From: a phage
NCBI GenBank assembly: GCA_036252695.1
Contig: GCA_036252695.1_4122.1
Length of the DNA stretch: 64,000 nt
Direction: 5' to 3' (one strand)
Positions within the stretch are counted from its first letter, which is position 1. Every line of letters starts with the position of its first letter. A program made the position numbers and the translations under genes. This document shows positions 26,990 through 55,653 of the stretch, in pieces. Below the pieces are notes generated by a model. The model was not told where the DNA came from. It saw only the letters and a list, made by a program, of their open reading frames with translations, and did not search any database.

Positions 26990-28138
26990 TCATTGTATAA
27001 ATGACATATCTACTTCTGTATAATTAAGAACGTTCTGTCCAGAAATACCACCCATTACTACTATTGCAAGGCCACAATAATATAATTTTCCAGTATCCGT
27101 AAGTATAAGTGATCCAGATGGACTGCGTACCAAATCACACGAACTATTAAAAGAAGTATAAGAAGGAGTATAGGAGTACTGATTATTATTATTACCAACA
27201 CCTAATTGCCCAAACCCATTCGTTCCAGAAGCATATAGAACTTCATCTGCTTTGACAATATGTGATGCCATGTTACCAACACAAGTATATAGAGTATAAA
27301 CTCCTGAACTCAATAATGTCGGAGTTTTATATTGTATATCTGTAGATGTAGAAGTACCACCTGTACCAAATTCGTTCCCATATTGTGCACCGAACTGTTT
27401 ACCACAAGCGTACAAATTATTATCCGATTTGATAAAAAATGTACTCTGATAACTTACATTAAAATCTATAACATCCGAAGAAATCATCGTCACCCCAGTA
27501 ATAGAAGTTTGATTACCCGTGCCCAACTGATAGTAATAGTTAAAACCACAACCCCATAAAGTATTATCTTCTTTTAGGTATATGTTACCAACTGCCTTTT
27601 TAACCGAAGTTATAGTATCTATCCTTTTGAATGTGTTAAAAGAATTAATGTTTGTACCATCACCAAATGATGATAGGTTCGAGTTATTGTTCGCTCCACA
27701 ACAATACAATGTACCATCGTTTGTTATCAAATTTACCTTCATATCATAAAAACTACTCATGTACTTTATATCAGAAACATTAATACCACCTGATGTTATC
27801 CACGTGGTACAGTCCGTCCACAAAGTTTTTCTATCAGTTACACCAGTGAATGCCTTCGTGTTACCAGTGATAAAAACTTTTCCAGTACCTTTCTCTTCAT
27901 ACAATTGACAATCACTACTGTTATCTTCCAATAGAACTCGTTTAACATTCTCCGCACAAAGAATAAATTTACTCGATGCTACACCTGTACCAGTACCCCA
28001 ATTCGTCGCAGAAGATGCATACAACTTATCAGTATAAGTATCATGAAGATACATAGAATCACTGGAATATATTTTAAAACGCCCTTCTTTCTCAGGTATA
28101 ATATTCCCATAATCAAACATTCTAACAAAAGGTAACAT
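26990..28138 (-). CDS. Fam-P beta-propeller paralog, N-term MLPFVRMFDYGN
   Basis: First (most upstream) gene of the minus-strand array; paralog of 19789..20937. Confidence 0.85.
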   Translation of the reverse strand: MLPFVRMFDYGNIIPEKEGRFKIYSSDSMYLHDTYTDKLYASSATNWGTGTGVASSKFILCAENVKRVLLEDNSSDCQLYEEKGTGKVFITGNTKAFTGVTDRKTLWTDCTTWITSGGINVSDIKYMSSFYDMKVNLITNDGTLYCCGANNNSNLSSFGDGTNINSFNTFKRIDTITSVKKAVGNIYLKEDNTLWGCGFNYYYQLGTGNQTSITGVTMISSDVIDFNVSYQSTFFIKSDNNLYACGKQFGAQYGNEFGTGGTSTSTDIQYKTPTLLSSGVYTLYTCVGNMASHIVKADEVLYASGTNGFGQLGVGNNNNQYSYTPSYTSFNSSCDLVRSPSGSLILTDTGKLYYCGLAIVVMGGISGQNVLNYTEVDMSFIQ

Positions 28139-28186
28139 ATTCCCTCCTTTATTCATTATATCATATTTACCCCAAAAAGAAAACCC

Positions 28187-28215
28187 TTGACAACCTTCCA
28201 GTACTGTTGTACAAT
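28187..28215 (+). promoter_or_regulatory. sigma70-type promoter for the plus-strand small-gene array
   Basis: TTGACA (28187..28192), 17-nt spacer, TACAAT (28210..28215), then SD aaggag and ATG 28241. Confidence 0.6.
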
Positions 28216-28240
28216 AGAAGGAATATAAGGAGAACTACAC

Positions 28241-28468
28241 ATGACAAATACTCTTAAGTACTACCTCAATACTCTAAATGAACTAGAGTACGCGAAGTTT
28301 CTCGCGGATAGTTCGTGGCTAATTGAGCTAAAAACACATAACAGTACTGGATGTAACCTTATGCTGAACAATGCACTTGATACCCTTGTAGTGAGCATTT
28401 TACACAACAACATCTGCGGGGATAGAAACAAACAATTATCAAAAATCTTAGTACTGGTAGCTCTATGA
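28241..28468 (+). CDS. EYY-family A small protein
   Basis: 75-aa ORF with SD; first of tandem array. Confidence 0.55.
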   Translation: MTNTLKYYLNTLNELEYAKFLADSSWLIELKTHNSTGCNLMLNNALDTLVVSILHNNICGDRNKQLSKILVLVAL

Positions 28469-28677
28469 ACACTATGAACATTGAACAGTACTACATTGAT
28501 GCACTACCAACAAAAGGTCTACGAGAAAGCCTACTGTATACACAAAATAATTATATAAACCTCAAACATTGTCCTAAACTCTTGAACTCGTACAGGAATA
28601 ATAAAATAAGAAATGCTGTACAAGGGGTAGAAAGTATGCAATACTATTACATCCTAACCCTTTTAATCGAGCACTAA
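28465..28677 (+). CDS. EYY-family A small protein
   Basis: N-term MNTMNIEQYYIDALP; ATGA-coupled. Confidence 0.6.
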   Translation: MNTMNIEQYYIDALPTKGLRESLLYTQNNYINLKHCPKLLNSYRNNKIRNAVQGVESMQYYYILTLLIEH

Positions 28678-28678
28678 T

Positions 28679-28864
28679 ATGTATAAAGAATTCTACTGTA
28701 GTAAGCTGCACAAACAATACAGAGATTCATTTCCCAATGAACCTATGGATATGAATAGTCCCTTTTATAAATTTGACTTCAGACTGGAGACACGTTATGC
28801 AATAGAACATCAATTTCCTGAAACTAAGTACTTATCTATCATGAACCTCATCTTTAAGTTCTAA
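28679..28864 (+). CDS. EYY-family A small protein
   Basis: N-term MYKEFY; tandem. Confidence 0.55.
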   Translation: MYKEFYCSKLHKQYRDSFPNEPMDMNSPFYKFDFRLETRYAIEHQFPETKYLSIMNLIFKF

Positions 28865-28875
28865 AAGAGTACTAT

Positions 28876-29088
28876 ATGAAAACAATGAACATACACCAGT
28901 ACTACTTAGATATTCTCCCTAAAGATGTACAGTTCATCCTTAAACAAGAATACAGTACTTTAAAAAACCTTAAAAGAACCGCACCGAATGCATTAATCCT
29001 GCACCAAAAAAATGTAGTTGATAATATTCTACAAGGTGTACCAGGGACCGAGTACTTTAACATAATAAGGCTAATTACATTACCATGA
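28876..29088 (+). CDS. EYY-family A small protein
   Basis: N-term MKTMNIHQYYLDILP, paralog of 28465. Confidence 0.6.
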   Translation: MKTMNIHQYYLDILPKDVQFILKQEYSTLKNLKRTAPNALILHQKNVVDNILQGVPGTEYFNIIRLITLP

Positions 29089-29270
29089 ATCATATATTAT
29101 ACTATTACCAAAATCTATCCGACAGGGACAAGTACACCCACAACTCCAATGTATGGTACTACAAACGCGGTAGTATAAGAGACAAACAACATTACTTCTG
29201 TATTGCTATAAAAGAAGCACTAACAACTAAGTACACGTACAGAGCAGTACTGAAACTTATTGATATGTAA
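29085..29270 (+). CDS. EYY-family A small protein
   Basis: C-term YTYRAVLKLIDM; coupled. Confidence 0.55.
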   Translation: MNHILYYYQNLSDRDKYTHNSNVWYYKRGSIRDKQHYFCIAIKEALTTKYTYRAVLKLIDM

Positions 29271-29280
29271 AGAGAATACT

Positions 29281-29463
29281 ATGAGCATTGAATTGTACTT
29301 AAGTAAATTACAGCCTGGCGATAGATTCATCTACAATCAGTTCTGTATCAACTACAAGAACGGGAGCAACAAATATCGTCGAGGATACCTATATACAAGC
29401 ACAAGAGATGCACAAAACGAAAAGTACACATACAGAGAAGTACTTAAACTAATCTCTATTTGA
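29281..29463 (+). CDS. EYY-family A small protein
   Basis: Start set at internal Met with SD; C-term YTYREVLKLISI. Confidence 0.55.
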   Translation: MSIELYLSKLQPGDRFIYNQFCINYKNGSNKYRRGYLYTSTRDAQNEKYTYREVLKLISI

Positions 29464-29471
29464 GGTAATAT

Positions 29472-29657
29472 ATGAATACATTTGAGTACTATACAAATAA
29501 ACTATCTATGCCTGAAAGATCTCATCTCTATGTGTGGAGAAATGCGTATAAAAGCGGCAATAAACTTATACAAAGAAATTCCCTTACAGTGTGTACAAAT
29601 TTAATTAAAGCAGAGTACCGCACATATATTGAAGTACTGAAACTGATAGCAATCTAA
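29472..29657 (+). CDS. EYY-family A small protein
   Basis: N-term MNTFEYY; C-term YIEVLKLIAI. Confidence 0.6.
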   Translation: MNTFEYYTNKLSMPERSHLYVWRNAYKSGNKLIQRNSLTVCTNLIKAEYRTYIEVLKLIAI

Positions 29658-29665
29658 GGTACTCT

Positions 29666-29845
29666 ATGCAAGAATTCTATATCTATAAACTCCAGCACAA
29701 AGATAGATACAACTATAATAAATTCCAAAGGTACTACACAGTCGGGAACAAAAGAGATAAAAAACGTTATCTACTCTCGTGTACAGTAGAAGCACAAAAC
29801 GAAAAGTACACGTACAGAGAAGTACTTAAACTAATCTCAATCTAA
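29666..29845 (+). CDS. EYY-family A small protein (59 aa, below ORF-track cutoff)
   Basis: Hand-translated MQEFYIYKL...YTYREVLKLISI. Confidence 0.5.
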   Translation: MQEFYIYKLQHKDRYNYNKFQRYYTVGNKRDKKRYLLSCTVEAQNEKYTYREVLKLISI

Positions 29846-29852
29846 GGTAGAC

Positions 29853-30041
29853 ATGAACACTTTTGAGTACTACTTCAATAAACTAAACCACATAGAACAA
29901 AGTATGCACCACACATTTATTCAGAACCATCAATCATCTGCACCTGGAATTAAAAACATATCGATTGAGATTATAACTAACAATGTACTGTCATCTGAAC
30001 GTTATATGTATATTGATGTACTGAAACTCATCTCTATGTAA
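29853..30041 (+). CDS. EYY-family A small protein
   Basis: N-term MNTFEYYFNKL; C-term YIDVLKLISM. Confidence 0.6.
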   Translation: MNTFEYYFNKLNHIEQSMHHTFIQNHQSSAPGIKNISIEIITNNVLSSERYMYIDVLKLISM

Positions 30042-30049
30042 GGAATAAT

Positions 30050-30229
30050 ATGCAAGAATACTATATAGAACACATAAGCATTAAAGACCGTTTCATGTAC
30101 GACACCTTCGTGAAGTACTACAACTTGGCAACTAACAGTACTAAAAATATTAATCTCAATAGCTGCATTCATCACGCACTAACAAAAGATAATCCCTTCA
30201 GGGAAATCCTCGCACTAGCATCTGTATAA
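30050..30229 (+). CDS. EYY-family A small protein (59 aa, below ORF-track cutoff)
   Basis: Hand-translated MQEYYIEHISIKDRF... Confidence 0.45.
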   Translation: MQEYYIEHISIKDRFMYDTFVKYYNLATNSTKNINLNSCIHHALTKDNPFREILALASV

Positions 30230-30240
30230 AGGAAAACCAA

Positions 30241-30900
30241 ATGAAACTTAATGCACACAGCAAACAATACCTTAAGCACTTTAAGTACCTCAACAGTATT
30301 CAAGCAGAATCTATTACATCTGCATATACGTATCACCCAAATGTACTAAAGAAACGAAATAAAAAGAAAAAATCCAGAAATGTTCTCGTATCTAAGAACC
30401 TCAAATCGTACTTGAAGAAAAATAATATAGCTCTTGCTTTTATTAATATCTATAATACTGATTTAAAAGTATTGAGTACTAATACCAGCACAAAAGCACT
30501 AAAGAATGCATCTATCTATATACACATGGATAATATCCCGTGCACTATAATTCTATCTTTCGGGAATGTATACTTCTTCGGGAATTGTAATAGCACCCAT
30601 GATATCAGTACTGCACAATTCCAAATCGGAGATATGTACTGCATGGGTTCAGAAAAAATACACGATAACATGCACTTCTTCCAAAAGCAACGTACTAACG
30701 AAACTGATACAGTACTGCAATTCCTCAAAGAACTAGAACACAAAGAATTATCCGACGAAGAAGAATTCATGTACAGTACTGTAATCGATAATCCAGGACT
30801 CTATAAAAACGCGTACAAACTAACAAAACATGTACAGGAACTTATCAGTACTGATAAGAAATTTCATCACCTCATTACGTATATTACAAACTATGTATAA
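30241..30900 (+). CDS. Fam-F hypothetical protein (219 aa; EEEFMYSTVIDNPG motif)
   Basis: ORF with SD aaggaaaa; motif related to other Fam-F members. Confidence 0.6.
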   Translation: MKLNAHSKQYLKHFKYLNSIQAESITSAYTYHPNVLKKRNKKKKSRNVLVSKNLKSYLKKNNIALAFINIYNTDLKVLSTNTSTKALKNASIYIHMDNIPCTIILSFGNVYFFGNCNSTHDISTAQFQIGDMYCMGSEKIHDNMHFFQKQRTNETDTVLQFLKELEHKELSDEEEFMYSTVIDNPGLYKNAYKLTKHVQELISTDKKFHHLITYITNYV

Positions 30901-31078
30901 AGAATACTACATAGATAAACTCCCAATGCATCTACAATACCTTGTACCAACAGAACCATTGGGTATAGAAAAAGACTACGAAAAAGACTACTTCGTTAAG
31001 TGCACTAAATCCTCGATAGATATTGACGACTATAATCGAGTACTGTATCACATCATTTTACTAATATATAAGTACTAA
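30893..31078 (+). CDS. EYY-family B small protein
   Basis: Start at internal Met MYKEYYIDKLPMHLQ, overlapping previous stop; family N-term. Confidence 0.6.
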   Translation: MYKEYYIDKLPMHLQYLVPTEPLGIEKDYEKDYFVKCTKSSIDIDDYNRVLYHIILLIYKY

Positions 31079-31079
31079 T

Positions 31080-31259
31080 ATGCACAAACATAAAGAATTC
31101 TACTTGTCGTACCTTAATTCCGATATAGTAACATCCAATACCTTCAGTACTAAAATTATCTATAATGAATTAATGAAAGAATGTATTAAAGGTGCTATTA
31201 ACCCTAAAGATACGTATGACTTGTACTATGCAGTACTAACCCTTGTTTTCACGAAATAA
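31080..31259 (+). CDS. EYY-family B small protein (59 aa, below cutoff)
   Basis: Hand-translated MHKHKEFYLSYL... Confidence 0.5.
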   Translation: MHKHKEFYLSYLNSDIVTSNTFSTKIIYNELMKECIKGAINPKDTYDLYYAVLTLVFTK

Positions 31260-31267
31260 CACATAAT

Positions 31268-31456
31268 ATGAATAACCACAAAGAATACTACATAGATAAA
31301 CTCCCAATGTATCTACAGAGCCATATACCAAACGTTGCATTGGGAATAAAAGATGACGCAAAAACAATGTTCCAAGAATGTACTAAGTACACCCTAATGT
31401 TCGAGGATAGAACATATAAACTGTACTACATCCTCGCCCTAATATTCAAGTACTAA
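31268..31456 (+). CDS. EYY-family B small protein
   Basis: MNNHKEYYIDKLPMYLQ. Confidence 0.6.
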   Translation: MNNHKEYYIDKLPMYLQSHIPNVALGIKDDAKTMFQECTKYTLMFEDRTYKLYYILALIFKY

Positions 31457-31466
31457 AGAGAACAAT

Positions 31467-31649
31467 ATGCATAAAGAATACTACACACAATTTCTCCCCA
31501 GTATATTTGAACACTACGCCAGATATAAAGTCCCCCTGGATAACGATTTGGCAGTACTGGGATTCAATAACTGCATAGAACGAAGTATAGAAAATAGTAG
31601 TAGTTATGACCAGCTATATAACACTATCCTACTTATATTCAGGTACTAA
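31467..31649 (+). CDS. EYY-family B small protein
   Basis: MHKEYYTQFLP. Confidence 0.6.
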   Translation: MHKEYYTQFLPSIFEHYARYKVPLDNDLAVLGFNNCIERSIENSSSYDQLYNTILLIFRY

Positions 31650-31839
31650 TGTGTATAAAGAATACTACATAAAAGATTTACCACCGCACCTTCAAGGTAA
31701 TCTGTTAGAAGATGAACCTCGCGGTATAGAAATAAACTACGAAAAAGACTACTTTATTACGTGCACTAAATGCGTGATAAATTATTACAACTACAATCAA
31801 GTACTGTATCATACCCTGTACTTAGCATTAGTATTCTAA
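31650..31839 (+). CDS. EYY-family B small protein (probable GTG start)
   Basis: Family N-terminus VYKEYYIKDLPPHLQ begins at GTG right after previous stop; track ORF 31606 is an upstream extension. Confidence 0.45.
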
Positions 31840-31848
31840 GAGAACAAT

Positions 31849-32037
31849 ATGCACAAAGAATACTACACAAAATATTTCCCAATGTACCTCAGAACTAATC
31901 TATTAGATAAACCTCGCGGTATCAATGCACAAAACGATAAAGTGTACTTTACTATGTGCACTAAAGCATGTATACTAGATTTTGATAGCTACCATCGAGT
32001 ACTGTATCATGTACTGTACCTAGCTTTCGTGTACTAA
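31849..32037 (+). CDS. EYY-family B small protein
   Basis: MHKEYYTKYFPMYL. Confidence 0.6.
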   Translation: MHKEYYTKYFPMYLRTNLLDKPRGINAQNDKVYFTMCTKACILDFDSYHRVLYHVLYLAFVY

Positions 32038-32046
32038 GAGAACAAT

Positions 32047-32232
32047 ATGCATAAAGAATTCTACTTAAGCCATCTGGAACTAAACTCCCAAATGCTTATA
32101 CCACTAAAACCAATAGATATCAAGGATAAGAAAAATACCAAACAATTCCACTACCACACACTATGTGCTATCAACCCAGATTATAATACATATAAACTGT
32201 ACTACATTCTCGCCCTAATATATAGGTACTGA
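32047..32232 (+). CDS. EYY-family B small protein
   Basis: MHKEFYLSHL. Confidence 0.6.
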   Translation: MHKEFYLSHLELNSQMLIPLKPIDIKDKKNTKQFHYHTLCAINPDYNTYKLYYILALIYRY

Positions 32233-32233
32233 T

Positions 32234-32419
32234 ATGCATAGAGAATACTATATACAATTTGTTAAAGGGAACTACAAACACGCCGTCCCCGTAAACCCCT
32301 TAAATTCTAATGACCCAAGTACTATATTCTTGTTCCATGACGCAATACGTACAGTACTCAATACTAAAGATGAACAGGTGCAGTACGTATTCTTACTATT
32401 ACTTATATACAGACACTAA
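32234..32419 (+). CDS. EYY-family B small protein
   Basis: MHREYYIQFV. Confidence 0.6.
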   Translation: MHREYYIQFVKGNYKHAVPVNPLNSNDPSTIFLFHDAIRTVLNTKDEQVQYVFLLLLIYRH

Positions 32420-32424
32420 CTAAT

Positions 32425-32634
32425 ATGAATAAAGAACATAAAGAATTCTACTCCAAACACCTCAGCCCCTCAGAACAAATGTTTCTAAGGACTACAGCAC
32501 CTTTAAGTACTGATACATATTTCGGCAGAGTATGCTACAATAATTGTATTCAAATGACTTTAAACGCAAACGCCAATAATAACAGTACTAATATGTACTC
32601 CGGCATCATAGGTATACTATTTCTATATGAATAA
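32425..32634 (+). CDS. EYY-family B small protein
   Basis: MNKEHKEFYSKHL. Confidence 0.6.
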   Translation: MNKEHKEFYSKHLSPSEQMFLRTTAPLSTDTYFGRVCYNNCIQMTLNANANNNSTNMYSGIIGILFLYE

Positions 32635-32809
32635 AGAACATAAAGACTTCTACATAAGAAAACTAACATTCGTCCCCGTAAAAATATATAAAGAATGCGA
32701 CCCAAGATTATACCTATGGCACTTCAATGAGTGCATAAAAGATTCTATATACCCTAAGAACTATAAAGAACAATTGTGCTCAGTACTAACACTAGTACTA
32801 TCATATTAA
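32627..32809 (+). CDS. EYY-family B small protein
   Basis: MNKEHKDFYIRKL; 8-nt overlap. Confidence 0.6.
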   Translation: MNKEHKDFYIRKLTFVPVKIYKECDPRLYLWHFNECIKDSIYPKNYKEQLCSVLTLVLSY

Positions 32810-32822
32810 TAGAGATAATACT

Positions 32823-33014
32823 ATGCATAAAGACTATAAAGAGTACTATATAAGTAAACTAAAAGAAAACGAACAAGCATGGATTAACAATTTAATCCCC
32901 CTGGCAATGACTCAATACGAATTTAATATGTGTACAAAGATTGTTTTAACTAGTAATGATATCTCTAATACGTACTACTTCCTATTAAGAGTACTATATG
33001 GTACTTTGAAATAA
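32823..33014 (+). CDS. EYY-family B small protein
   Basis: MHKDYKEYYISKL. Confidence 0.6.
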   Translation: MHKDYKEYYISKLKENEQAWINNLIPLAMTQYEFNMCTKIVLTSNDISNTYYFLLRVLYGTLK

Positions 33015-33025
33015 TAAGGTATACT

Positions 33026-33232
33026 ATGCAGAACATAAAAAACTATAAAGAGTACTATATAAGTAAACTACCACCGACTGACCAAGCATGGATTAGATCT
33101 ATAATAGTACTGGCATTTAATAGATATGCATTTAACAGATGCACAGAGATTGCTATAGACCCTTGTCCTATTAAAGAGAAGGCACAGTACAATCAGTACT
33201 ACTATATGTTAATGCTTATATATAGGAAGTAA
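33026..33232 (+). CDS. EYY-family B small protein
   Basis: MQNIKNYKEYYISKLPP. Confidence 0.6.
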   Translation: MQNIKNYKEYYISKLPPTDQAWIRSIIVLAFNRYAFNRCTEIAIDPCPIKEKAQYNQYYYMLMLIYRK

Positions 33233-33239
33233 TTCAACA

Positions 33240-35200
33240 TATAGACAGGGGAAGCTCCGTAGGGAAAGCATTGGACAGGCTTTAACATATGTTATATATG
33301 TTAAAATTCAGCCTGCTCGACGTCTGAATTGTTAAAATTCAGCCTGGACAAATGCGATCACTAGGATTCTCCCCAGGCTAAACCCCGTAATCATATGTAG
33401 TCATAAGTAATCATATATAAACATTTATATTAGCACCGTAGAATCACAGAATGATTATATATGATTCAGTACTGATTAGTATAGACAAGATTGCTCAAGA
33501 TTGCTCAAGAATGCTAGGGAAGGATTCAGTACTGCCCCAAAAGTATTCAGTACTGAAGGTGTCGATATCCCACTAAGTAGGCAGAGGAAGTCTGCCGTAC
33601 TTTGTAGTTTCCAAGCTCCTTTTCCATTTTGCAAATTACATCAAATGTAATCAAAAGTAATCACGCAATGATTAGTACTGAATTATTACTTTCACCTTAA
33701 TTACAATTACCCTTTTACCAGTCGGGGTAAAATTCAATTACCCCTTGAGGCTCCAGCAAAAAGTTGGTTAGTACTCCATCCTAAATCTCGATCCTAAAAA
33801 TTTTGGAGTACCTATGAAATAAAAGTTGGATCTTCGAAAGTTGAAATTTACGTTGGGACGTTTATGATTTGTGGGATATAATGATGTTTGTAGTCGGGTA
33901 GTTCTCAAGAATATCAGTACTGAAAGATGAAAGAAAGTTATTGACTTTATGATTCAGTACTGTATAATGTTCTACATAGCTTCAAGGGGTGATGAGTTGC
34001 TGCGAACAATTCATTTACTCTACCTACTGTCGTGAGACAGTACAGAAAAGATAGTTCCTCCTATTGGTGGTACATCTTTTTGAACCTCATATGAAAATCG
34101 TAATAACAGTACTGATATTAACAGAATGGTATCAGTACTGATTTTAATCTAAAGCATTATGCCACCAGCACAAGCTGGTGGATTCCCTCTAACAGTATTC
34201 AGTACTACATGATAGTCTTCATCCTCCTAGGGTAACATAGTGAGGGCTATGATGGCAGTACTGAATACTCCCTTTCAAAAGATAGATCTATGGTATAGTA
34301 CTGACGGATTTTGGGTGTAGTTACCCTGGGTGGATTTTGGACGTAGATATGTCTAGCCCTCCAGAAGTCTGGAAGTAAAGATGGCTATCCATCTAGACGG
34401 CTAAACGGCTAGATTTCTGGATGGCTAGACGTTTGGACGGCTAAACGGCTAGATGGTTACACGTCTGGAAGTATAGACGGCTAAATCAAAATTTTATTTT
34501 GTTTTTTCCAATAGTTCCCCTACCGCGTGGGGATAGTTTCCCCGCAGTATCTGGAGTTAGATTTTTCTGAATCTGGAATCATTATCTTATAAACTGGGGG
34601 CAATGTCAACGGCCTGGACGGATATTTTTAAAAATTTTTTTCAGTACTGAATTTTGGGCGTAACTATGCACCCGGTGGGCTTGAGTCTTTCTCGACTTGA
34701 TGGAACTATTATACAGTACTGAAAAAAATAAAGCAATACCCTGGAAGCAAAAAAGTTTTAATTAATTTGCTTGCTATCCTGGGCCGGACTATGGTACTAT
34801 ATTTCAGTACTGAGAAAGTGCGTTTACCTGCTAGGGTGCGGGAGTGTATCCTTTTTTTATATCTTGAATTTTGGGCGTAATTCCGCACCCTCTGGGGTTT
34901 CCGCTTTCTCGCGTCTATGTAGTAATTATACGCTTTTTCAGGATCAAGTCAATACCTAAAAACAAAATAATTGAAAATAATTTAACGCGTTTAAACGGCC
35001 CGTAAAGCCCTGGAATGATTGGAATGGTGCAAATGTATAGCTTAGGTGTATTAATGCGTTAGAATGCGTCTGAGGCCGTTTTATGGGGTGTAGTAGTGAT
35101 TTGGTTGATTCAGTACTGAATGATAGTACTGAATAATAGTTCCCCTATATAGAAAGAAAACTATTTTAAAAGTACATGTAGAAAGTACTTGCAAACTATG
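33240..35200. repeat. ORF-free repeat-rich region (candidate origin, packaging site or regulatory hub)
   Basis: About 2 kb without a credible ORF; dense (T)CAGTACTGA palindromes (about 17 AGTACT by my read), short direct repeats (gattgctcaag x2, gttaaaattcagcct x2, gtaatca-type), and two ~60-bp related copies at ~34648..34715 and ~34865..34925. Confidence 0.6.
34380..34500. repeat. iteron-like direct repeats
   Basis: GACGGCTAAACGGCTAGAT at 34396..34414 and 34436..34454 plus partial copies (ggatggctagacg, gacggctaaatc) and TCTGGAAGTA twice. Confidence 0.6.
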
Positions 35201-35248
35201 TTTAAAGGCGTATAATGTTTTACATCGAGAGCGGGAACACTTCCCGCT
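35189..35248 (+). promoter_or_regulatory. early-type promoter (TTGCAA..TATAAT 35211..35216) plus 5' leader hairpin (35230..35248)
   Basis: aaagtacTTGCAAactatgtttaaaggcgTATAATgttttacatc then agcgggaa-cac-ttcccgct. Confidence 0.65.
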
Positions 35249-35271
35249 ACACTTTAAAAGAGATTAATACG

Positions 35272-35634
35272 ATGGCGACCCAAATCAATAAAATTATTGC
35301 TAACCTGGTCAACTTCCGTGAAGAGATGAAAGGTCTTCCGGCTGAAACGGTAAAAATTCACATTTCAGCTTATCGGGAACTTATTACAATGTTGCCGCTT
35401 AAGCGTGAACAATACGCCGCTACCGTGATGCTTGATGCGATGATCCATAAGATGATCGCCAGTGATTTAACGATGGTTTATCAGTATATGGGCGAAAATT
35501 TCGCGGTGTATAGTAAACCAGTACCAGGAATGGAAAGTACAGAAGTATTACACGGTTTAAATTTAAAACAAGATGCATGGGATAATATGCCTCGTTTCCT
35601 GGTATGGGCTGACAGTGGCAAAATTTACGAATAA
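35272..35634 (+). CDS. hypothetical early protein
   Basis: Start moved to Met downstream of promoter and leader hairpin (track ORF starts inside -10 box). Confidence 0.55.
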   Translation: MATQINKIIANLVNFREEMKGLPAETVKIHISAYRELITMLPLKREQYAATVMLDAMIHKMIASDLTMVYQYMGENFAVYSKPVPGMESTEVLHGLNLKQDAWDNMPRFLVWADSGKIYE

Positions 35635-35648
35635 GTTTAATAAAGTAC

Positions 35649-35707
35649 TTGCAAACTAAGTTTAAAAGCGTATAATGTTTTACATCAGGTGGGGAATAGT
35701 TCCCCAC
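35649..35707 (+). promoter_or_regulatory. early-type promoter plus leader hairpin
   Basis: TTGCAA 35649..35654, TATAAT 35671..35676, hairpin gtggggaa-tag-ttccccac 35689..35707. Confidence 0.65.
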
Positions 35708-35727
35708 TATATAAGAGGATTAAAAAA

Positions 35728-35967
35728 ATGGCTAAATCAAAAATGTTCTTAGGTCACAAAAACAAAACTCATTGGAATGTAAGCCTTTGGATTAATAACG
35801 ATGAGGCATTGTATCGGCTGGCCCAGGACTTTATTGCCGCCAATACTAATCGTAATGATGCGGCCCGTCATATGATGCTATTTTTAGAACAGACTGGGCA
35901 AGATAAAACTCCAGACGGCTTTAAGTATAGCACTACTGCGATCCGTGCGGCGATGGTTGGAATGTAA
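35728..35967 (+). CDS. hypothetical early protein (paralog of 37770..38009)
   Basis: SD aagagga; shares GHKNKTHWNVSLWINN...TPDGFKYSTTAIRAAMVGM with 37770 gene. Confidence 0.65.
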   Translation: MAKSKMFLGHKNKTHWNVSLWINNDEALYRLAQDFIAANTNRNDAARHMMLFLEQTGQDKTPDGFKYSTTAIRAAMVGM

Positions 35968-36055
35968 TAGAATAGAATTTATTTAAAGTACTATTGCACG
36001 GTGATAGTACTTTATAATAGTGTTTTATTCATACACCAACGATAAGGGCAACAGC

Positions 36056-36322
36056 ATGAATATTAAGTATTTTGCGACGCGTGAACAAGCTCGGATCGCC
36101 GCACGCCAGGACGGGGCAACGTTTAAAGATATGGGCGTACAATCGGAACGTGGTAAACGTTGGGCCATTGTAAAGCGTAGTACCGCCAGATCATTACAGT
36201 ACTGGTTAGCGGCCTTAAAAAGTCCCGATAGTGTATCGCGACGAGTGGTAGAAATAAAGCTCGACCGAAAGGGCAACCGCGTGACCGTGTACCGTACTAA
36301 AAAGATTGCAGTACTTGAATAA
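36056..36322 (+). CDS. hypothetical early protein (paralog of 49098..49493)
   Basis: Shares FATREQARIAAR..TFKDMG..RWA..RKGNRVTVY with 49098 gene. Confidence 0.6.
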   Translation: MNIKYFATREQARIAARQDGATFKDMGVQSERGKRWAIVKRSTARSLQYWLAALKSPDSVSRRVVEIKLDRKGNRVTVYRTKKIAVLE

Positions 36323-36329
36323 AAAGTAC

Positions 36330-36389
36330 TTGCAAACTATGTTTAATGGCGTATAATGTTTTACATCGAGAGCGGGAACACTTCCCGCC
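36330..36389 (+). promoter_or_regulatory. early-type promoter plus leader hairpin
   Basis: TTGCAA 36330..36335, TATAAT 36352..36357, hairpin agcgggaacacttcccgc 36371..36389. Confidence 0.65.
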
Positions 36390-36409
36390 TATAACCTGGA
36401 GTAATAAAA

Positions 36410-36640
36410 ATGACTAATATGTATATGACTGAAGTTAAAACTGTAAAAGATACTACCACGAATAAAACTACTTACTTACAGCGGATCTGCGGTGTATGGC
36501 AACGTATCAGCAAATCAAAGTACTATAAATTAACATCATATGCAAACCGTTCGGATTCATTCAGTACTGAAATAAAAGGTAATAAAGTACACCAATACGG
36601 CACTTATTATTATTATAGCCTGGACGCGATTGCAGTATAA
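36410..36640 (+). CDS. hypothetical early protein
   Basis: 76-aa ORF with SD ggag. Confidence 0.55.
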   Translation: MTNMYMTEVKTVKDTTTNKTTYLQRICGVWQRISKSKYYKLTSYANRSDSFSTEIKGNKVHQYGTYYYYSLDAIAV

Positions 36641-36887
36641 GCAGTTTACAAATCTTTACAATTGCCGGTATTGACTTATTTTGTCAGTACTGGCATAATG
36701 TATTCATTGGCAGATAAGCCGTAGCCCATAGGGTGCGGGAGTGTATCTATAGAAAAAGTAGTTTAGTATAGTTACAATTGTGCACCCGGTGGGTTAGCTG
36801 TTGTCATGGGGTATATTATGCCAGTACTTGATAATGCTGTCAATACTTTTTTAATATTCAGTACTGAAAACTATTTTTAAAAAGTAC

Positions 36888-36915
36888 TTGCAAACTATGT
36901 TTAAAGGCGTATAAT
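36888..36915 (+). promoter_or_regulatory. early-type promoter (upstream of structured element)
   Basis: TTGCAA 36888..36893, TATAAT 36910..36915. Confidence 0.6.
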
Positions 36916-36924
36916 GTTTTACAT

Positions 36925-37004
36925 CAGGACGGGGAACGAAATAAGTAACTTCCCGTTAAGTAGCCCAGGAGTAAGGCACACGAAAAACTCCCCTGATAAA
37001 ATAG
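36925..37004 (+). ncRNA. candidate structured RNA element / long leader (copy 1)
   Basis: ~80 nt between two tandem promoters; near-identical copy at 47900..47979 (3 substitutions) while flanks diverge; internal complementary arms (cgggga..tcccg; cagg..ctcccctg). Confidence 0.4.
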
Positions 37005-37005
37005 T

Positions 37006-37035
37006 TTGACAAATGTTTTTTTAAAAGCGTATAAT
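37006..37035 (+). promoter_or_regulatory. sigma70-type promoter
   Basis: TTGACA 37006..37011, 18-nt spacer, TATAAT 37030..37035. Confidence 0.6.
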
Positions 37036-37067
37036 ACTTACATCAACTACTGAATGAGGGTTACAAA

Positions 37068-37679
37068 ATGAAAACTATCACTACTACTACTTATGTTATG
37101 GATTTTTCTGAATTGAACGCAGAACAAAAAACGTCAGCTATCGAACTGGTTCGGGATCGTGAGCGTTCATGCGGTGATTATTTCTTTTCTGAGGGCGTAT
37201 ACGAATACTATAAAGAAACAATTTTGCCGGAGTATGGCATTGATGACGCTGATTTGCAATTCAGTGGTTTTTGGTCGCAAGGTGACGGTGCATCAATTAG
37301 TACTGACCACGTTGACGCAGTGAAGTTTTTACGTAAGGTAAGAGCATTAACTAAGTATCGCTCAATCCGGCACCTGCTGAATGAAGATGATTTGGCGATG
37401 AGTGTAAAGCGTTATCACTACCACTACTCGCATGAGAATACTGTAAGCGGGTACATTGAATCGGCTTACACTGATTTAACCGCAAAACAAGAAACGTTAG
37501 TTAATGAGCTTGAGGAACTACTCACTGACACTATTCGTGAATTGTCCCGCAAGTTGTACCGTGATTTAGAGAATGCATATGAGGATCAATTCACTACTGA
37601 AAACATTACGGCACTGATTGAGGGTAACGAATATCAATTCAATGTTATTGATGGCGTAGTAGAATCAATCGAATATTAA
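37068..37679 (+). CDS. hypothetical protein (203 aa)
   Basis: ORF with SD gaggg; E. coli-like codons. Confidence 0.7.
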   Translation: MKTITTTTYVMDFSELNAEQKTSAIELVRDRERSCGDYFFSEGVYEYYKETILPEYGIDDADLQFSGFWSQGDGASISTDHVDAVKFLRKVRALTKYRSIRHLLNEDDLAMSVKRYHYHYSHENTVSGYIESAYTDLTAKQETLVNELEELLTDTIRELSRKLYRDLENAYEDQFTTENITALIEGNEYQFNVIDGVVESIEY

Positions 37680-37769
37680 TTTAAAAAGTACTTGCAAACT
37701 AAGTTTAAAAGCGTATAATACTTTATATCGAGGCGGGGAGTGGTTCCCCGCTCAAACGAGGATTTAAAA

Positions 37770-38009
37770 ATGGCTAGTACTAAAACTTACAACGGACACA
37801 AAAACAAAACTCATTGGAATGTAAGCCTTTGGATTAATAACGGTGAGTCATTGTATCGGCTTGCTCAAAGTTGCATCGCACAAAGTAGAACTAAAGATAT
37901 TGCAGCGGAATGTATGTACCGCAGATTAAAAGCCAACGGTACTACTACAACGCCGGACGGCTTTAAGTATAGCACTACTGCGATCCGTGCTGCAATGGTT
38001 GGAATGTAA
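37770..38009 (+). CDS. hypothetical early protein (paralog of 35728..35967)
   Basis: Promoter TTGCAA/TATAAT (37714..37719) and hairpin 37734..37751 upstream. Confidence 0.65.
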   Translation: MASTKTYNGHKNKTHWNVSLWINNGESLYRLAQSCIAQSRTKDIAAECMYRRLKANGTTTTPDGFKYSTTAIRAAMVGM

Positions 38010-38067
38010 TATTCAGTACTGTAACAATGGCGGGGAATGGTTCCCGCCTTTATTGAGGGTTTATCTA

Positions 38068-38328
38068 ATGAGTAAAGTAATTAACTATACAGTACTAAGC
38101 AAGTCATTATCTATCAGTCATTGCACCGATGGTTATTGGCTATTTGATGAAACGCGTGGCATGAATTTAGCTATGCGTGCAAAAACTGCTGAGGCGGCGT
38201 ATATTCAAGCACTGGAATACTACCAGGAACGTTTAAAGGAAGTAGAAGAAGATTATAAAAGCCTCAAAGCGAAAGTAGATCATTTCGTCGGTCAATTCAT
38301 CGAGGAAGACGACGACAAACAATATTGA
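38068..38328 (+). CDS. hypothetical early protein
   Basis: Start after hairpin ggcggggaatggttcccgcc (38029..38048) and SD gaggg. Confidence 0.55.
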   Translation: MSKVINYTVLSKSLSISHCTDGYWLFDETRGMNLAMRAKTAEAAYIQALEYYQERLKEVEEDYKSLKAKVDHFVGQFIEEDDDKQY

Positions 38329-38336
38329 AAAAGTAC

Positions 38337-38396
38337 TTGCAATTAGTTTCAAGTACTGTATAATGGTTTACATCAAAGGGGGAAATGGTTCTCCCT
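38337..38396 (+). promoter_or_regulatory. early-type promoter plus leader hairpin
   Basis: TTGCAA 38337..38342, TATAAT 38359..38364, hairpin agggggaaatggttctccct 38377..38396. Confidence 0.6.
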
Positions 38397-38414
38397 GGTA
38401 ATGAGGAAAATAAA

Positions 38415-38636
38415 ATGGCTAATATCACTACTCTTTCCCAACTGGAAGCACTGGTTAAATCTATGCGGGAACATGCCGACAAAATCGGCGTACAAGATCC
38501 AGCCGTTTGCTTCTGCGACGAATTGAATGATGATACACTGGTAATAGCAGAAGTCCAGGACGTTTCTAACTATTCCTCGCGTTACACTGGCGGCGTAGCA
38601 AATAAAGGTGACTTCTGTTTATACCTTACAAAATAA
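38415..38636 (+). CDS. hypothetical early protein
   Basis: Start at Met after leader hairpin; SD gagga. Confidence 0.55.
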   Translation: MANITTLSQLEALVKSMREHADKIGVQDPAVCFCDELNDDTLVIAEVQDVSNYSSRYTGGVANKGDFCLYLTK

Positions 38637-38640
38637 CAAC

Positions 38641-38671
38641 GCGGGGAGATAATAACTCCCCGTTACTTTTT
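38641..38671 (+). terminator. intrinsic terminator
   Basis: cggggag-ataataa-ctccccg followed by T run. Confidence 0.55.
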
Positions 38672-38804
38672 CAGTACTGAATCATTTAATAGACGGATCT
38701 ATGCACCCGGTGGGTTAGTGACTGTTTCGTCTTGATGTAGTAATTATGCCAGTACTGGATGCACTTGTCAACAATTATTTTTCAAATACTTTTTATTAAA
38801 ATAC

Positions 38805-38858
38805 TTGCAATTAGTTTTTAAACGCGTATAATGTTTTGCATAGGGGGAGCGGTTCCCC
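38805..38858 (+). promoter_or_regulatory. early-type promoter plus leader hairpin
   Basis: TTGCAA 38805..38810, TATAAT 38827..38832, hairpin gggggagcggttcccc 38843..38858. Confidence 0.6.
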
Positions 38859-38879
38859 TGGTAACTAAGGAATAATAAA

Positions 38880-39137
38880 ATGCTTGAACAAATCAAATCA
38901 ACGTCTGCGAATGTAACGGGAACGGTAGCACACTTTACTAGTGATGAATCGCGGGGCGTTCCCTATTGTGCTGTACATGTAAACACTGAGGGTAACTACT
39001 GGTTTACGGTTTACGGATCATATTCATTTGGACGGCCAGGGCATCAAAAAATTCTGGATAAAGTACAACCAACGGGTAAAAATATCACTGCCGAAATGTT
39101 TTATAAAAATCATAAAGTACTTGATAATAGTTTTTAG
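38880..39137 (+). CDS. hypothetical early protein
   Basis: 85-aa ORF, SD aagga. Confidence 0.6.
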   Translation: MLEQIKSTSANVTGTVAHFTSDESRGVPYCAVHVNTEGNYWFTVYGSYSFGRPGHQKILDKVQPTGKNITAEMFYKNHKVLDNSF

Positions 39138-39199
39138 TACTGTATAATATTTTACATCGCAAGGGGGAGCGGTTCCCCCTGGTAACTAAGGATAATCAA

Positions 39200-39499
39200 A
39201 TGAAAATTGCAATCATCGCCCTGGCTTTATCTGTTTCCTCTTTCGCTGTTAATGCGTCATTAGATGTAAGTAGTGAAAAATTCATTCAGTGCACTGTTGC
39301 AATGACCGATGAAAGAACTGGCGAGATTGTATTAAAGGATTTAGAGATCCAGCCAGAAGCATTTAAAAACGGGCCGTTCCATGAAGAAGACGAAAAAGGT
39401 AGCACGACAATTTATTACGATGCAAGTACTAAACGCGGTTCGGTCACTGTTATGGATACTGAGAAAGTAACTCATACTGGCGTTATTAATTGCCGTTGA
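39200..39499 (+). CDS. small secreted/periplasmic protein (predicted signal peptide)
   Basis: N-term MKIAIIALALSVSSFAVNA-S fits signal peptidase I pattern; promoter and hairpin upstream. Confidence 0.6.
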   Translation: MKIAIIALALSVSSFAVNASLDVSSEKFIQCTVAMTDERTGEIVLKDLEIQPEAFKNGPFHEEDEKGSTTIYYDASTKRGSVTVMDTEKVTHTGVINCR

Positions 39500-55238: not shown

Positions 55239-55444
55239 AAACTATAACACGAACCCAATCATACGGTCTTATCTTGAAATACATGGACTTAATGGTGGAT
55301 ATCAGCAAAGACCTTCCTAAAACTGAAATTGAAGTTGCAAGAGCAGAGATCCGTATGTTGGCTGTACTGAACACAAACCATCAGGAAGAGTATGTTCAAG
55401 ATTGGATTCGATTTTTAATAGAAGATATTAAGAGTAAACTATGA
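55235..55444 (+). CDS. Fam-L small protein
   Basis: coupled; LNTNHQEEYV. Confidence 0.65.
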   Translation: MKTITRTQSYGLILKYMDLMVDISKDLPKTEIEVARAEIRMLAVLNTNHQEEYVQDWIRFLIEDIKSKL

Positions 55445-55653
55445 TTATATTAACACCTGAAGAATATAAGAAACGTTTTAAATCTGTCCAGGCTGAAATA
55501 TTACTTATATACCTTTCAAATGCAGATCTTAACTTATCAAGGGTAATGGAGAAGGATTTACTTATGGGTGCATTTTTGGATACAGACTTTCAGGAGTATT
55601 ATGTAGGAGAATACTTTATTGCACTTCAGAACCACATTAAGAGTAAACTATGA
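55441..55653 (+). CDS. Fam-L small protein
   Basis: coupled; FLDTDFQEYYV. Confidence 0.65.
   Translation: MIILTPEEYKKRFKSVQAEILLIYLSNADLNLSRVMEKDLLMGAFLDTDFQEYYVGEYFIALQNHIKSKL

What the first reader, a model, noticed from the sequence alone, without database searches (positions are those of the whole stretch)
28241..33232. Second tandem expansion: about 22 small genes of two related EYY subfamilies
Genes of 59-75 aa in head-to-tail series. Subfamily A (28465..30229) starts M(N/K)T(M/F)..(Q/E)YY..L and often ends YTYREVLKLISI-like. Subfamily B (30893..33232) starts M(H/Y)KEYYI.KLP and ends in Y..L.L.(F/Y)(K/R)Y. Several are just below the 60-aa track cutoff. The array is interrupted by one 219-aa Fam-F gene.
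Basis: seen in the sequence. Interest (0 to 1): 0.7.

Follow-up and report, generated by a model that had tools for sequence, protein, structure and literature searches.

The report
Tandem array of tiny phage genes
A giant E. coli phage carries 22 back-to-back genes for related 7-kDa helical proteins of unknown function, read from one host-type promoter next to the genome's terminal repeat; the genes are real and fast-evolving, but they are one more case of the tandem gene expansions already known in such phages.

Summary
Window 28241-33232 (+) carries 22 head-to-tail ORFs of 59-75 aa plus one 219-aa gene, at 98% coding density; simulated sequence gives about one such ORF. The window is an Asteriusvirus-type jumbo coliphage (PBECO4/121Q group), and the array is syntenic in more than 30 relatives.

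The genes appear to encode real proteins:
- ortholog dN/dS is about 0.38;
- AlphaFold models reach pLDDT 91-92;
- the g05-g10 type and subfamily B match end to end by profile comparison (91%, E 9e-7), whereas the same-genome LGTNYQ family ("Fam-L") scores 0.3%.

- "subfamily A" is heterogeneous: g02/g04 are a separate, only probably related type, and g03 belongs to B;
- g01 is unproven;
- Fam-L is unrelated.

There is no known fold, Pfam domain or PDB relative, and only 35 cluster representatives exist among 1.84 billion proteins. B is PHROG 11711, function unknown.

The array has one conserved near-consensus sigma-70 promoter. It ends 344 nt from the terminal-repeat boundary inferred from phage G17. 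It is a hypervariable island between flanks that are 87-94% identical.

Best reading (inferred, about 0.4): an early operon of diversified small binder proteins for host takeover or counter-defence. It is a new member of a known kind.

The parts
28187..28215 (+). sigma-70-type promoter of the array (TTGACA-17-TACAAT, 11 of 12), with AGTACT in the spacer; the AAGGAG Shine-Dalgarno at 28228-28233 follows
   Evidence: Conserved as TTGACA-17-TAC(A/T)AT plus AAGGAG in JP4, G17, PBECO4, WPEC3, SHEFM2K, phAPEC6 and the divergent JNE01. Consensus match only; activity not shown.
28241..28468 (+). g01, 75 aa; first gene of the operon; family membership unproven
   Evidence: Its profile against the other groups gives probability 1-5%. 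Orthologs occupy the same position in all relatives.
28465..28677 (+). g02, 70 aa, 'MNTMNIEQYY' type
   Evidence: Pairs with g04 at 39 bits. The type profile A7 against B gives 57%, E 1e-4, 57 columns; against the g05-g10 type 33%, E 4.5e-4.
28679..28864 (+). g03, 61 aa, a subfamily-B member sitting in the first half of the array
   Evidence: PHROG 11711 at E 2e-15; best blastp hits are g18, g17 and g11.
28876..29088 (+). g04, 70 aa, same type as g02
29085..30229 (+). g05-g10: six genes of 59-62 aa (29085-29270, 29281-29463, 29472-29657, 29666-29845, 29853-30041, 30050-30229), ending in VLKLISI-like sequence
   Evidence: Mutual blastp scores of 15-59 bits. 34 homolog clusters, all from this phage group. 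AF2 pLDDT 90.8 with four helices.
30241..30900 (+). 219-aa gene (PHROG 29152, unknown function) that splits the array at the same place in every relative
   Evidence: Unrelated to the small family. No Pfam, PDB, NCBIfam or PADLOC hit. Homologs occur only in this phage group.
30893..33232 (+). g11-g22: twelve subfamily-B genes of 59-69 aa (30893-31078, 31080-31259, 31268-31456, 31467-31649, 31651-31839, 31849-32037, 32047-32232, 32234-32419, 32425-32634, 32627-32809, 32823-33014, 33026-33232)
   Evidence: PHROG 11711 at E 1e-9 to 8e-27 for the members tested. The window HMM gives 60-91 bits for all 13 B members. AF2 pLDDT 92.1.
33576..33596 (+). position matching the inner boundary of the about 20.7-kb direct terminal repeat of phage G17, coinciding with a terminator-like hairpin (33577-33596)
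   Evidence: G17 record 1-20668 equals 350150-370817. The record end maps to window 33576 and record position 1 to window 54746. Hairpin. G17 termini were inferred from read coverage (PMC6563267).

Best explanation
Shown:
- The region is one tightly packed operon of 22 genes. They encode a lineage-restricted family of about 7-kDa, tyrosine-rich (11% Tyr), all-helical cytoplasmic proteins, plus one conserved 219-aa gene.
- The family has a fixed scaffold: an N-terminal (K)EYY..L helix and a hydrophobic C-terminal helix that ends the protein. The central part varies strongly.
- The operon sits behind a single conserved near-consensus sigma-70 promoter and a strong ribosome-binding site.
- It lies 344 nt from the boundary of the terminal repeat, which is full of early-type promoters.
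- It is a hypervariable island between well-conserved flanks.

Inferred:
- Host RNA polymerase transcribes the operon early in infection, and the genes are translated in series by coupling.
- Each paralog uses its variable centre to bind a different target, or target variant, in the host cell, for host takeover or neutralising defence proteins.
- The set is maintained and reshuffled by tandem duplication, loss and recombination. It is a phage counterpart of the terminal multigene families of large eukaryotic DNA viruses.
For: Real, selected proteins:
- ORF packing is far beyond chance.
- Pooled ortholog dN/dS is 0.38.
- AF2 pLDDT is 92 and 91, with all five models agreeing.
- The g05-g10 type and B match by profile at 91%, E 9e-7, against a same-genome negative control of 0.3%.

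Scaffold and variable centre: column entropy is low at positions 2-10 and in the last helix and high in between.

Soluble: the longest hydrophobic run is 11 residues.

Early expression:
- The TTGACA-17-TACAAT promoter and AAGGAG site are conserved in 7 phages, including JNE01, whose array DNA is otherwise unalignable.
- No comparably strong internal promoter (next best 10 of 12) and no terminator-like site was found within the array.
- The array shares the AGTACT-dense signature of the adjacent early-promoter region.
- In the related phage CBB, RpoD-like promoters mark a region of short ORFs that its authors suspect are early host-takeover genes, extending into the terminal repeat (PMC5259590).
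- The small proteins are absent from the phAPEC6 virion proteome, whereas the neighbouring RCC1 proteins gp549 and gp551 are present.

Diversification:
- Against JNE01 the small proteins are 17-57% identical (g01 had no hit), while genes just downstream are 80-100% identical.
- DNA identity is 87-94% in the flanks and almost nil in the array.
- Copy number ranges from 15 to 22 across relatives, with the same layout of an A-type block, the 219-aa gene, then a B block.
- Paralogs are 20-55% identical while most orthologs are 80-100% identical. The copies are therefore old and individually retained.
Against: - There is no direct evidence of transcription timing, translation, or any binding partner.
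- The promoter is a consensus match in a region where such matches are no more frequent than in shuffles (31 found against 35 expected).
- About a third of the genes lack a recognisable Shine-Dalgarno sequence.
- dN/dS of 0.38 is only moderate constraint. Three genes exceed 1, on few substitutions and non-independent pairs.
- Hypervariability also fits relaxed constraint or recombinational replacement.
- The terminal-repeat position is transferred from G17, where it rests on read coverage.
Confidence: 0.4

Rival explanations
1. Genome filler. The array results from repeated tandem duplication that was tolerated because the large capsid packages by the headful. The copies are drifting, dispensable ORFs with no specific role, as in the ratchet model of jumbo-phage genome growth.
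For: - Hua et al. proposed tandem duplication as a route of jumbo genome growth and noted an array of more than 30 similar genes in 121Q (PMC5646251).
- This window holds at least three further arrays: 19 RCC1 genes, about 25 LGTNYQ genes and three 120-aa genes.
- Copy number varies among isolates.
- dN/dS is only moderately below 1, and above 1 for g06, g09 and g11.
Against: - Paralogs are ancient (20-55% identity), yet all 22 in this window, and their counterparts in the nine relatives examined, are intact ORFs of the same length; none was seen to be disrupted.
- Several are 98-100% conserved between phages, for example g14 and g07.
- Pooled dN/dS of 0.38 and confident folds indicate selection on the proteins.
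- The promoter and ribosome-binding site are conserved even where the genes have diverged.
Confidence: 0.2
2. Partners of the neighbouring RCC1-repeat virion proteins. Each small protein would act as a chaperone, adaptor or regulator for one of the roughly 19 beta-propeller paralogs encoded divergently upstream.
For: - The two arrays are adjacent and divergent, with similar copy numbers: 19 RCC1 and 22 small genes here, 12 and 17 in G17.
- Both are hypervariable against JNE01, where RCC1 identities are 25-74%.
Against: - The regulation differs. Most RCC1 genes are preceded by their own terminator hairpin and an 'ATTAAATATAGTATAAT' box next to a strong Shine-Dalgarno sequence. The small genes share one sigma-70 promoter.
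- Two RCC1 proteins are in the phAPEC6 virion but none of the small ones.
- The copy-number comparison rests on two genomes.
- Yersinia Eneladusvirus has an RCC1 array without this small family.
Confidence: 0.1
3. A substrate or precursor array. The small proteins would be modified or processed by the conserved 219-aa protein embedded among them, as with multi-copy RiPP precursors beside their maturation enzyme.
For: - The 219-aa gene is at the same internal position in every relative.
- The small proteins have conserved termini and a variable middle.
- They are unusually rich in Tyr and nearly all carry one conserved Cys.
Against: - The small proteins are predicted to be compact folded helical domains, not disordered leader-core peptides.
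- The 219-aa protein matches no enzyme family in Pfam, PDB, NCBIfam or PADLOC.
- No protease, transporter or other maturation gene lies nearby.
Confidence: 0.05
4. Small DNA-binding regulators. The N-terminal 'YY..KLP...Q' resembles the start of sigma-70 region 4, so the family could be mini helix-turn-helix factors, perhaps recognising the abundant AGTACT palindrome.
For: - There is a visual motif resemblance, which is my own recollection and not a test.
- g05-g08 are basic (pI 9.4-9.6).
- AGTACT is 12-fold over-represented and lies in promoters.
Against: - No Pfam sigma or HTH hit even at E 1.
- A PDB profile search finds nothing.
- Net charge across the family ranges from -3 to +7.
Confidence: 0.05
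5. A DNA-level feature. The conserved pieces would be AGTACT-containing DNA motifs, and the ORFs would be incidental.
For: - AGTACT occurs 41 times in the array against 3.5 expected.
- It falls at recurrent positions: the E-Y-Y codons, the V-L codons and the KY-stop junction.
- DNA conservation between paralogs peaks at the gene junctions.
- The array prefers TAC over TAT, unlike the rest of the window.
Against: - E-Y-Y is conserved where the DNA motif is absent; most B genes use GAATACTAC.
- The motif occurs in all three frames and throughout the window, so it is a genome-wide bias and not specific to the array.
- dN/dS below 1, intact ORFs and confident folds need protein-level selection.
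Confidence: 0.03

Closest known systems
PHROG 11711 (phage orthologous group, function unknown)
   Same: Subfamily B members match it end to end (E 1e-9 to 8e-27 over 62 of 62 positions). This is the same family.
   Different: The PHROG carries no function. At E 0.01 it did not capture g01, g02 or the two g05-g10 members tested (g08, g09). g05-g10 is linked to B here only by profile-profile comparison.
Clusters of small early 'host-takeover' genes in large virulent phages (T4 early-region small ORFs; the SPO1 host-takeover module and T5 pre-early genes in terminal redundancies; the suspected early region of Rak2-like phage CBB)
   Same: Many short ORFs of unknown function, host-type sigma-70 promoters, and a position in or beside a long terminal repeat. 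The T4, SPO1 and T5 comparisons rest on general knowledge.
   Different: Those modules are mostly collections of unrelated genes. Here 20-21 of 22 belong to one family. Timing and function have not been measured for this array.
Terminal multigene families of large eukaryotic DNA viruses (ASFV MGF110/360/505; poxvirus gene 'accordions')
   Same: Tandem paralogs next to terminal repeats, copy number varying between isolates, and high divergence between conserved flanks. The comparison is from general knowledge.
   Different: There is no sequence or fold relation. The paralogs here are old and mostly orthologous between isolates, not recent amplifications. A role in host range or immune evasion is untested.
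Other lineage-specific tandem expansions in jumbo phages (array of more than 30 genes in 121Q and phage G, PMC5646251; about 35 zinc-ribbon copies in phage G, PMC7824862)
   Same: The same phenomenon in the same phage group. The window itself holds the LGTNYQ and RCC1 arrays.
   Different: This is a different protein family: LGTNYQ against EYY gives 0.3% probability. No description of the EYY array was found in the papers searched.

Membership tests
PHROG 11711 | Significant full-length match to the family HMM | tested here: met
   g03, g11, g13, g19 and g22 match at E 2e-15, 8e-27, 2e-20, 2e-9 and 1e-18 over the whole profile. g01, g02, g08 and g09 gave no hit at E 0.01.
One EYY superfamily uniting the g05-g10 type with B | Profile-profile match over the full length, above a same-genome control | tested here: met
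   91.4%, E 9e-7, 52 columns. The control LGTNYQ family gives 0.3-0.45%. Predicted helices coincide: H28-43/H47-60 against H29-44/H46-58.
EYY superfamily: inclusion of g02/g04 | Profile-profile match over the full length | tested here: inconclusive
   57%, E 1e-4 against B and 33%, E 4.5e-4 against the g05-g10 type. Both alignments are co-linear over 57 columns.
EYY superfamily: inclusion of g01 | Profile-profile match | tested here: not met
   Probability 1.3%, 1.8% and 5.2% against B, the g05-g10 type and the g02/g04 type. One search is circular because A6 contains g01.
Sigma-70 region 4 / helix-turn-helix regulators | HMM match to an HTH or sigma domain, or an HTH fold | tested here: not met
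Early host-takeover gene module | Host sigma-70 promoter upstream | tested here: met
   TTGACA-17-TACAAT at 28187-28215, conserved in 7 phages. This is a consensus match only.
Early host-takeover gene module | Transcribed in the first minutes of infection; products act on host targets | not testable with these tools
   No transcriptome or interaction data for any Asteriusvirus were found.
Terminal multigene family (ASFV or poxvirus type) | Tandem paralogs adjacent to the terminal repeat, with copy number varying between isolates | tested here: met
   The array ends 344 nt from the repeat boundary mapped from G17. There are 15-22 copies in nine relatives.
Small membrane proteins (holin or superinfection-exclusion type) | A hydrophobic segment long enough to span a membrane, or a signal peptide | tested here: not met
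   The longest run of hydrophobic or small residues is 11. GRAVY is negative for 21 of 22.
Virion structural proteins | Detected in purified particles | tested here: not met
   The phAPEC6 virion proteome table lists gp549 and gp551 (RCC1) but none of gp540c-gp548c (PMC7247149). Very small proteins can escape such analyses.
Known anti-phage defence proteins (PADLOC) | HMM match | tested here: not met
   No hit at E 1 for four small proteins and both 'Fam-F' proteins.

The most novel reading that the evidence does not exclude
The EYY array would be a standing library of mini-binders. One stable three-to-four-helix scaffold carries a hypervariable centre, and each paralog neutralises a different host defence or housekeeping protein (or allelic variant) early in infection. 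Together with the LGTNYQ array on the other side, the borders of the terminal repeat would then act as hot spots where jumbo phages generate and exchange such libraries, making them a prokaryotic equivalent of the variable terminal multigene families of ASFV and poxviruses.
Probability: 0.25. Interest if true: 0.65.

Novelty: new member of a known kind. Interest (0 to 1): 0.4.

Why it matters
Most of the several hundred genes annotated in these jumbo coliphages, which are being developed for therapy, have no known function (83% in phAPEC6). Much of their extra DNA consists of arrays like this one. This work shows that the 22 tiny ORFs are real, selected, folded proteins of one family, many of them missing from older annotations (PBECO4 and phAPEC6 list only some). 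It also shows that they form one promoter-driven unit at the edge of the terminal repeat and are among the fastest-diverging parts of the genome. That gives a defined and cheap experimental target: delete the operon, express single paralogs, and pull down partners. If they prove to be target-specific inhibitors, they would be a compact source of new host- or defence-blocking proteins and would clarify why jumbo genomes grow by tandem duplication.

Tried and rejected
- Relation to 'Fam-L' (LGTNYQ array, 55441-63113): rejected at 0.3-0.45%.
- The 219-aa gene as a family member with an insertion: rejected at 0.2%.
- Function of the 219-aa gene: nothing from Pfam, PHROG annotation, a PDB profile, NCBIfam or PADLOC, and its homologs are restricted to the same phages.
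- Distant relatives elsewhere. The exhaustive HMMER search of 1.84 billion representatives found 35 proteins of 44-69 aa. The most divergent one traced (P0116) lies in the syntenic array of phage JNE01. BFVD returned only family members. Yersinia Eneladusvirus has an RCC1 array but not this family.
- Rfam scan of 27500-36000: no hit.
- Copy-number covariation with the RCC1 array: only two genomes were compared (19 and 22 here, 12 and 17 in G17), which is too weak, so I dropped it.
- A local hhalign shuffle control timed out. I replaced it with the tool's hhalign and the LGTNYQ negative control.
- The afdb50 fold library was unavailable.
- (g01 against A6) was discarded as circular.
- Literature: no paper in the held library describes this family or the AGTACT excess.

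Full report
**Origin of the window.** The 5-kb region matches 34 records in the phage collection, all jumbo phages of E. coli or Salmonella of the PBECO4/121Q/G17 group (genus Asteriusvirus) at 86-99% identity. The closest is phage Turkey3. The neighbouring RCC1-repeat protein is 100% identical to that of Turkey3.

**The observation.**
- Twenty-two ORFs of 59-75 aa and one of 219 aa lie head to tail on the + strand between 28241 and 33232.
- Three starts are better placed internally: 29281, 30893 and GTG 31651.
- Intergenic distances run from -8 to +13 nt and coding density is 97.8%.
- The + strand holds 24 ORFs of at least 55 aa covering 97.6% of it. In 500 composition-matched simulations the mean was 1.0 ORF (maximum 5) and 4% coverage. 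The minus strand has four.
- This is not a by-product of AT-rich sequence.

**Family structure.**
- All-against-all BLASTP gives three clusters: g02+g04; g05-g10; and g03 with g11-g22. g01 stands alone.
- The third cluster is PHROG 11711, function unknown.
- Word-indexed searches of 5.8 billion proteins returned 63 (B) and 34 (g05-g10 type) clusters, all from this phage group or from unnamed metagenome contigs.
- With these homologs added, the g05-g10 profile matches the B profile end to end: 91.4%, E 9e-7, 52 columns. With window sequences alone it was 84%, E 7e-6.
- For g02/g04, I enlarged the profile with divergent copies from JNE01 and a metagenome contig. It gives co-linear full-length alignments at 57% (E 1e-4) and 33% (E 4.5e-4). 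This is probable but not proven.
- g01 gives 1-5%.
It scores 0.3-0.45% against both EYY profiles.

**Evidence that these are proteins.**
- Ortholog comparisons with six relatives give pooled pS 0.116, pN 0.046 and dN/dS 0.38. Individual genes range from about 0.05 to above 1, on few and non-independent differences.
- AlphaFold2 models built on the family alignments are confident. B (g11) has pLDDT 92.1 and pTM 0.76, with helices at 3-7, 12-15, 28-43 and 47-60. The g05-g10 type (g08) has pLDDT 90.8, with helices at 2-7, 11-26, 29-44 and 46-58.
- The last two helices and the N-terminal turn coincide with the hhalign alignment.
- Column entropy is lowest in the N-terminal (K)EYY..L segment and the C-terminal helix, and highest in the centre.
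- The proteins are 11% tyrosine, have no membrane-length hydrophobic run, and range from net charge -3 to +7.

**No known relative.**
- Pfam, NCBIfam and PADLOC give nothing.
- Profile searches of all PDB sequences give nothing.
- Foldseek against viral models finds only two family members.
- An exhaustive HMMER scan of 1.84 billion cluster representatives finds 35 proteins, all of 44-69 aa.
- The most divergent one traced (P0116) lies in the syntenic array of phage JNE01. A second member traced (P0097) lies in the same syntenic array on two metagenome contigs.
- The family is confined to this phage lineage.

**Locus anatomy and conservation.**
- Every relative has the same layout: RCC1-repeat genes on the opposite strand, a short divergent gap, g01, A-type genes, the roughly 220-aa gene, then B-type genes.
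- Small-gene counts are 22 in the window, 21 in JP4 and SHEFM2K, 19 in WPEC3 and one metagenome contig, 18 in phAPEC6, 17 in G17 and PBECO4, and 15 in JNE01.
- Most window genes have an ortholog at 80-100% identity in the same order, while paralogs are 20-55% identical. The copies are therefore old, with gain and loss of individual genes, not a recent amplification.
- Older annotations miss many of them: PBECO4 lists 5 and phAPEC6 lists 8.

**Expression signals.**
- A near-consensus sigma-70 promoter (TTGACA-17-TACAAT) lies at 28187-28215, followed by AAGGAG and the g01 start.
- Promoter and ribosome-binding site are conserved in seven phages, including JNE01.
- No comparably strong promoter and no terminator-like site lies inside the array. 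About two-thirds of the genes have a short Shine-Dalgarno-like sequence, and several starts overlap the preceding stop. Together these fit a single polycistronic unit with coupled translation.
- In contrast, most RCC1 genes are preceded by their own terminator hairpin and an 'ATTAAATATAGTATAAT' box. Two RCC1 proteins, but none of the small ones, are in the phAPEC6 virion proteome (PMC7247149).
- For the related phage CBB, RpoD-like promoters cluster in a region of short hypothetical ORFs that its authors suspect are early host-takeover genes, continuing into the terminal repeat (PMC5259590).
- No transcriptome of any Asteriusvirus was found.

**Position relative to the terminal repeat.**
- The G17 record is linear. 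Its first 20,668 bp are identical to its last 20,668 bp, and its authors report terminal redundancy of about 20 kb from read coverage (PMC6563267).
- The two boundaries map to window 33576 and 54746.
- The EYY array ends at 33232, 344 nt before one boundary. The LGTNYQ array begins about 100 nt beyond the other. Both read in the same direction as the repeat's genes.
- From about 35.2 kb to at least 40 kb (the stretch examined), most genes inside the repeat are preceded by a roughly 91-nt cassette: AGTACTTGCAA, 17-18 nt, TATAAT, a GC hairpin and a Shine-Dalgarno sequence.

**Hypervariability.** Against JNE01, the genes just downstream are 80-100% identical at protein level, and the DNA from 33260 to 39492 is 87-94% identical. 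The promoter is 86% identical. Inside the array only two patches of about 71% align. The small proteins are 17-57% identical (g01 had no hit), the 219-aa protein 40%, and the nearest RCC1 genes 25-74%.

**Interpretation.**
- Shown: a real, selected, lineage-restricted family of small helical proteins in one promoter-led operon at the edge of the terminal repeat, forming a fast-diverging island.
- Inferred: early expression by host RNA polymerase, and action as diversified binders of host or defence proteins (confidence about 0.4).
- Rivals: tolerated duplication without specific function (0.2); partnership with the RCC1 virion proteins (0.1); a substrate array for the 219-aa protein (0.05); HTH-like regulators (0.05); a purely DNA-level feature (0.03).
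- The DNA-level rival arose because AGTACT is 12-fold over-represented in the array and falls on the E-Y-Y, V-L and KY-stop codons. It is largely excluded. The amino-acid motif persists where the DNA motif is absent, the motif excess is window-wide and in all frames, and the proteins are under selection.

**Novelty.** Tandem duplication as a feature of 121Q-type and other jumbo phages is published (PMC5646251; PMC7824862; PMC7247149). Subfamily B already exists as an uncharacterised PHROG. Contributed here:
- the link between the g05-g10 type and B;
- the corrected membership;
- the confident orphan fold;
- the single conserved promoter;
- the placement of both small-gene arrays against the terminal-repeat borders;
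- the contrast between the hypervariable array and its conserved flanks.

I rate it a new member of a known kind, of moderate interest.

Noticed in passing
whole window; densest 28200-54700: AGTACT (a palindrome) is the most frequent hexamer of the window: 265 copies against 22.5 expected (12-fold). CAGTAC and GTACTG are about 10-fold over. 111 copies lie in the 17% of the window that is intergenic, and the rest occur in all three reading frames. It forms part of the early-type promoters (AGTACTTGCAA at -35, AGTACTGTATAAT at -10), of terminator stems (GCCAGTACT..GTACTGGC) and of free 12-14-bp palindromes (ATTCAGTACTGAAT). The dense zone coincides with the EYY array plus the inferred terminal repeat. 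No paper in the held library mentions it.
   Followed up: partly
window 33576-54746: By homology with the ends of the linear G17 record, this stretch is the roughly 21-kb direct terminal repeat. The window therefore comes from an assembly that joins the unique region across one repeat copy. The EYY array abuts one border and the LGTNYQ array the other.
   Followed up: partly
window 33233-35214: About 2 kb with no ORF of 65 aa or more that is nevertheless 95-97% conserved in 28 or more phages, better than the coding array beside it. It straddles the terminal-repeat border, is AGTACT-dense (9 per kb), has promoter-like sites on both strands and repeated 80-nt elements containing 'GCACCCGGTGGG'. 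There is no Rfam match.
   Followed up: partly
window 35177-39199 and onward: A roughly 91-nt cassette (A-tract, AGTACTTGCAA, 17-18 nt, TATAAT, GTTTTACAT, GC-rich hairpin GGGGAA..TTCCCC, Shine-Dalgarno, ATG) precedes many of the genes, with 7-10 copies in 5 kb. This looks like a phage-specific early promoter plus 5'-UTR module.
   Followed up: partly
window 55441-63113 (+): A second, larger tandem array of about 25 genes of 52-97 aa sharing 'LGTNYQE.Y...I..L...I' ('Fam-L'). It is unrelated to the EYY family and probably the array of more than 30 similar genes noted for 121Q by Hua et al. One member (61558-62367, 269 aa) is an LGTNYQ domain fused to a larger C-terminal part.
   Followed up: partly
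window 5402-28156 (-): Nineteen paralogous RCC1-repeat (beta-propeller) genes of 245-407 aa. Most have their own terminator hairpin and an 'ATTAAATATAGTATAATGAATAAAGGAGG' upstream box. G17 has 12. Two orthologs are virion proteins in phAPEC6. Copy content differs strongly between relatives.
   Followed up: partly
window 30241-30900, 6604-7254, 60449-60790, 61099-61449, 62364-62684: A loose 'Fam-F' family. Proteins of 106-219 aa share a short motif, (L/I)S.EE.FQYSL(V/I).D, and are embedded in or beside each of the three arrays. Pairwise E-values run from 4e-9 (62364 against 61099) to 0.02 (219-aa against 216-aa). Function unknown.
   Followed up: partly
window 28241-33232: Codon usage in the array departs from the rest of the window: TAC exceeds TAT (96:56, against 117:331 and 151:222 elsewhere), CTN exceeds TTR (119:44), and the coding strand has C above G with strong A above T skew.
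   Followed up: no
window 4257-5365 (+) and 35689-35967 / 37740-38009 (+): Further small paralog sets. Three consecutive genes of 120-123 aa; G17 has about eight genes of 104-123 aa in series at the corresponding place. Two DUF7249-type genes sit 2 kb apart inside a duplicated segment of 85-92% identity.
   Followed up: no
L010:6564-6752 (metagenome contig ERZ27245996): An extra gene ahead of g01 (MQHEEFYTQHL...YNEVLKLIYIM). It combines the g05-g10-type ending (EVLKLI) with a B-like tail, a possible intermediate or recombinant between the subfamilies.
   Followed up: no
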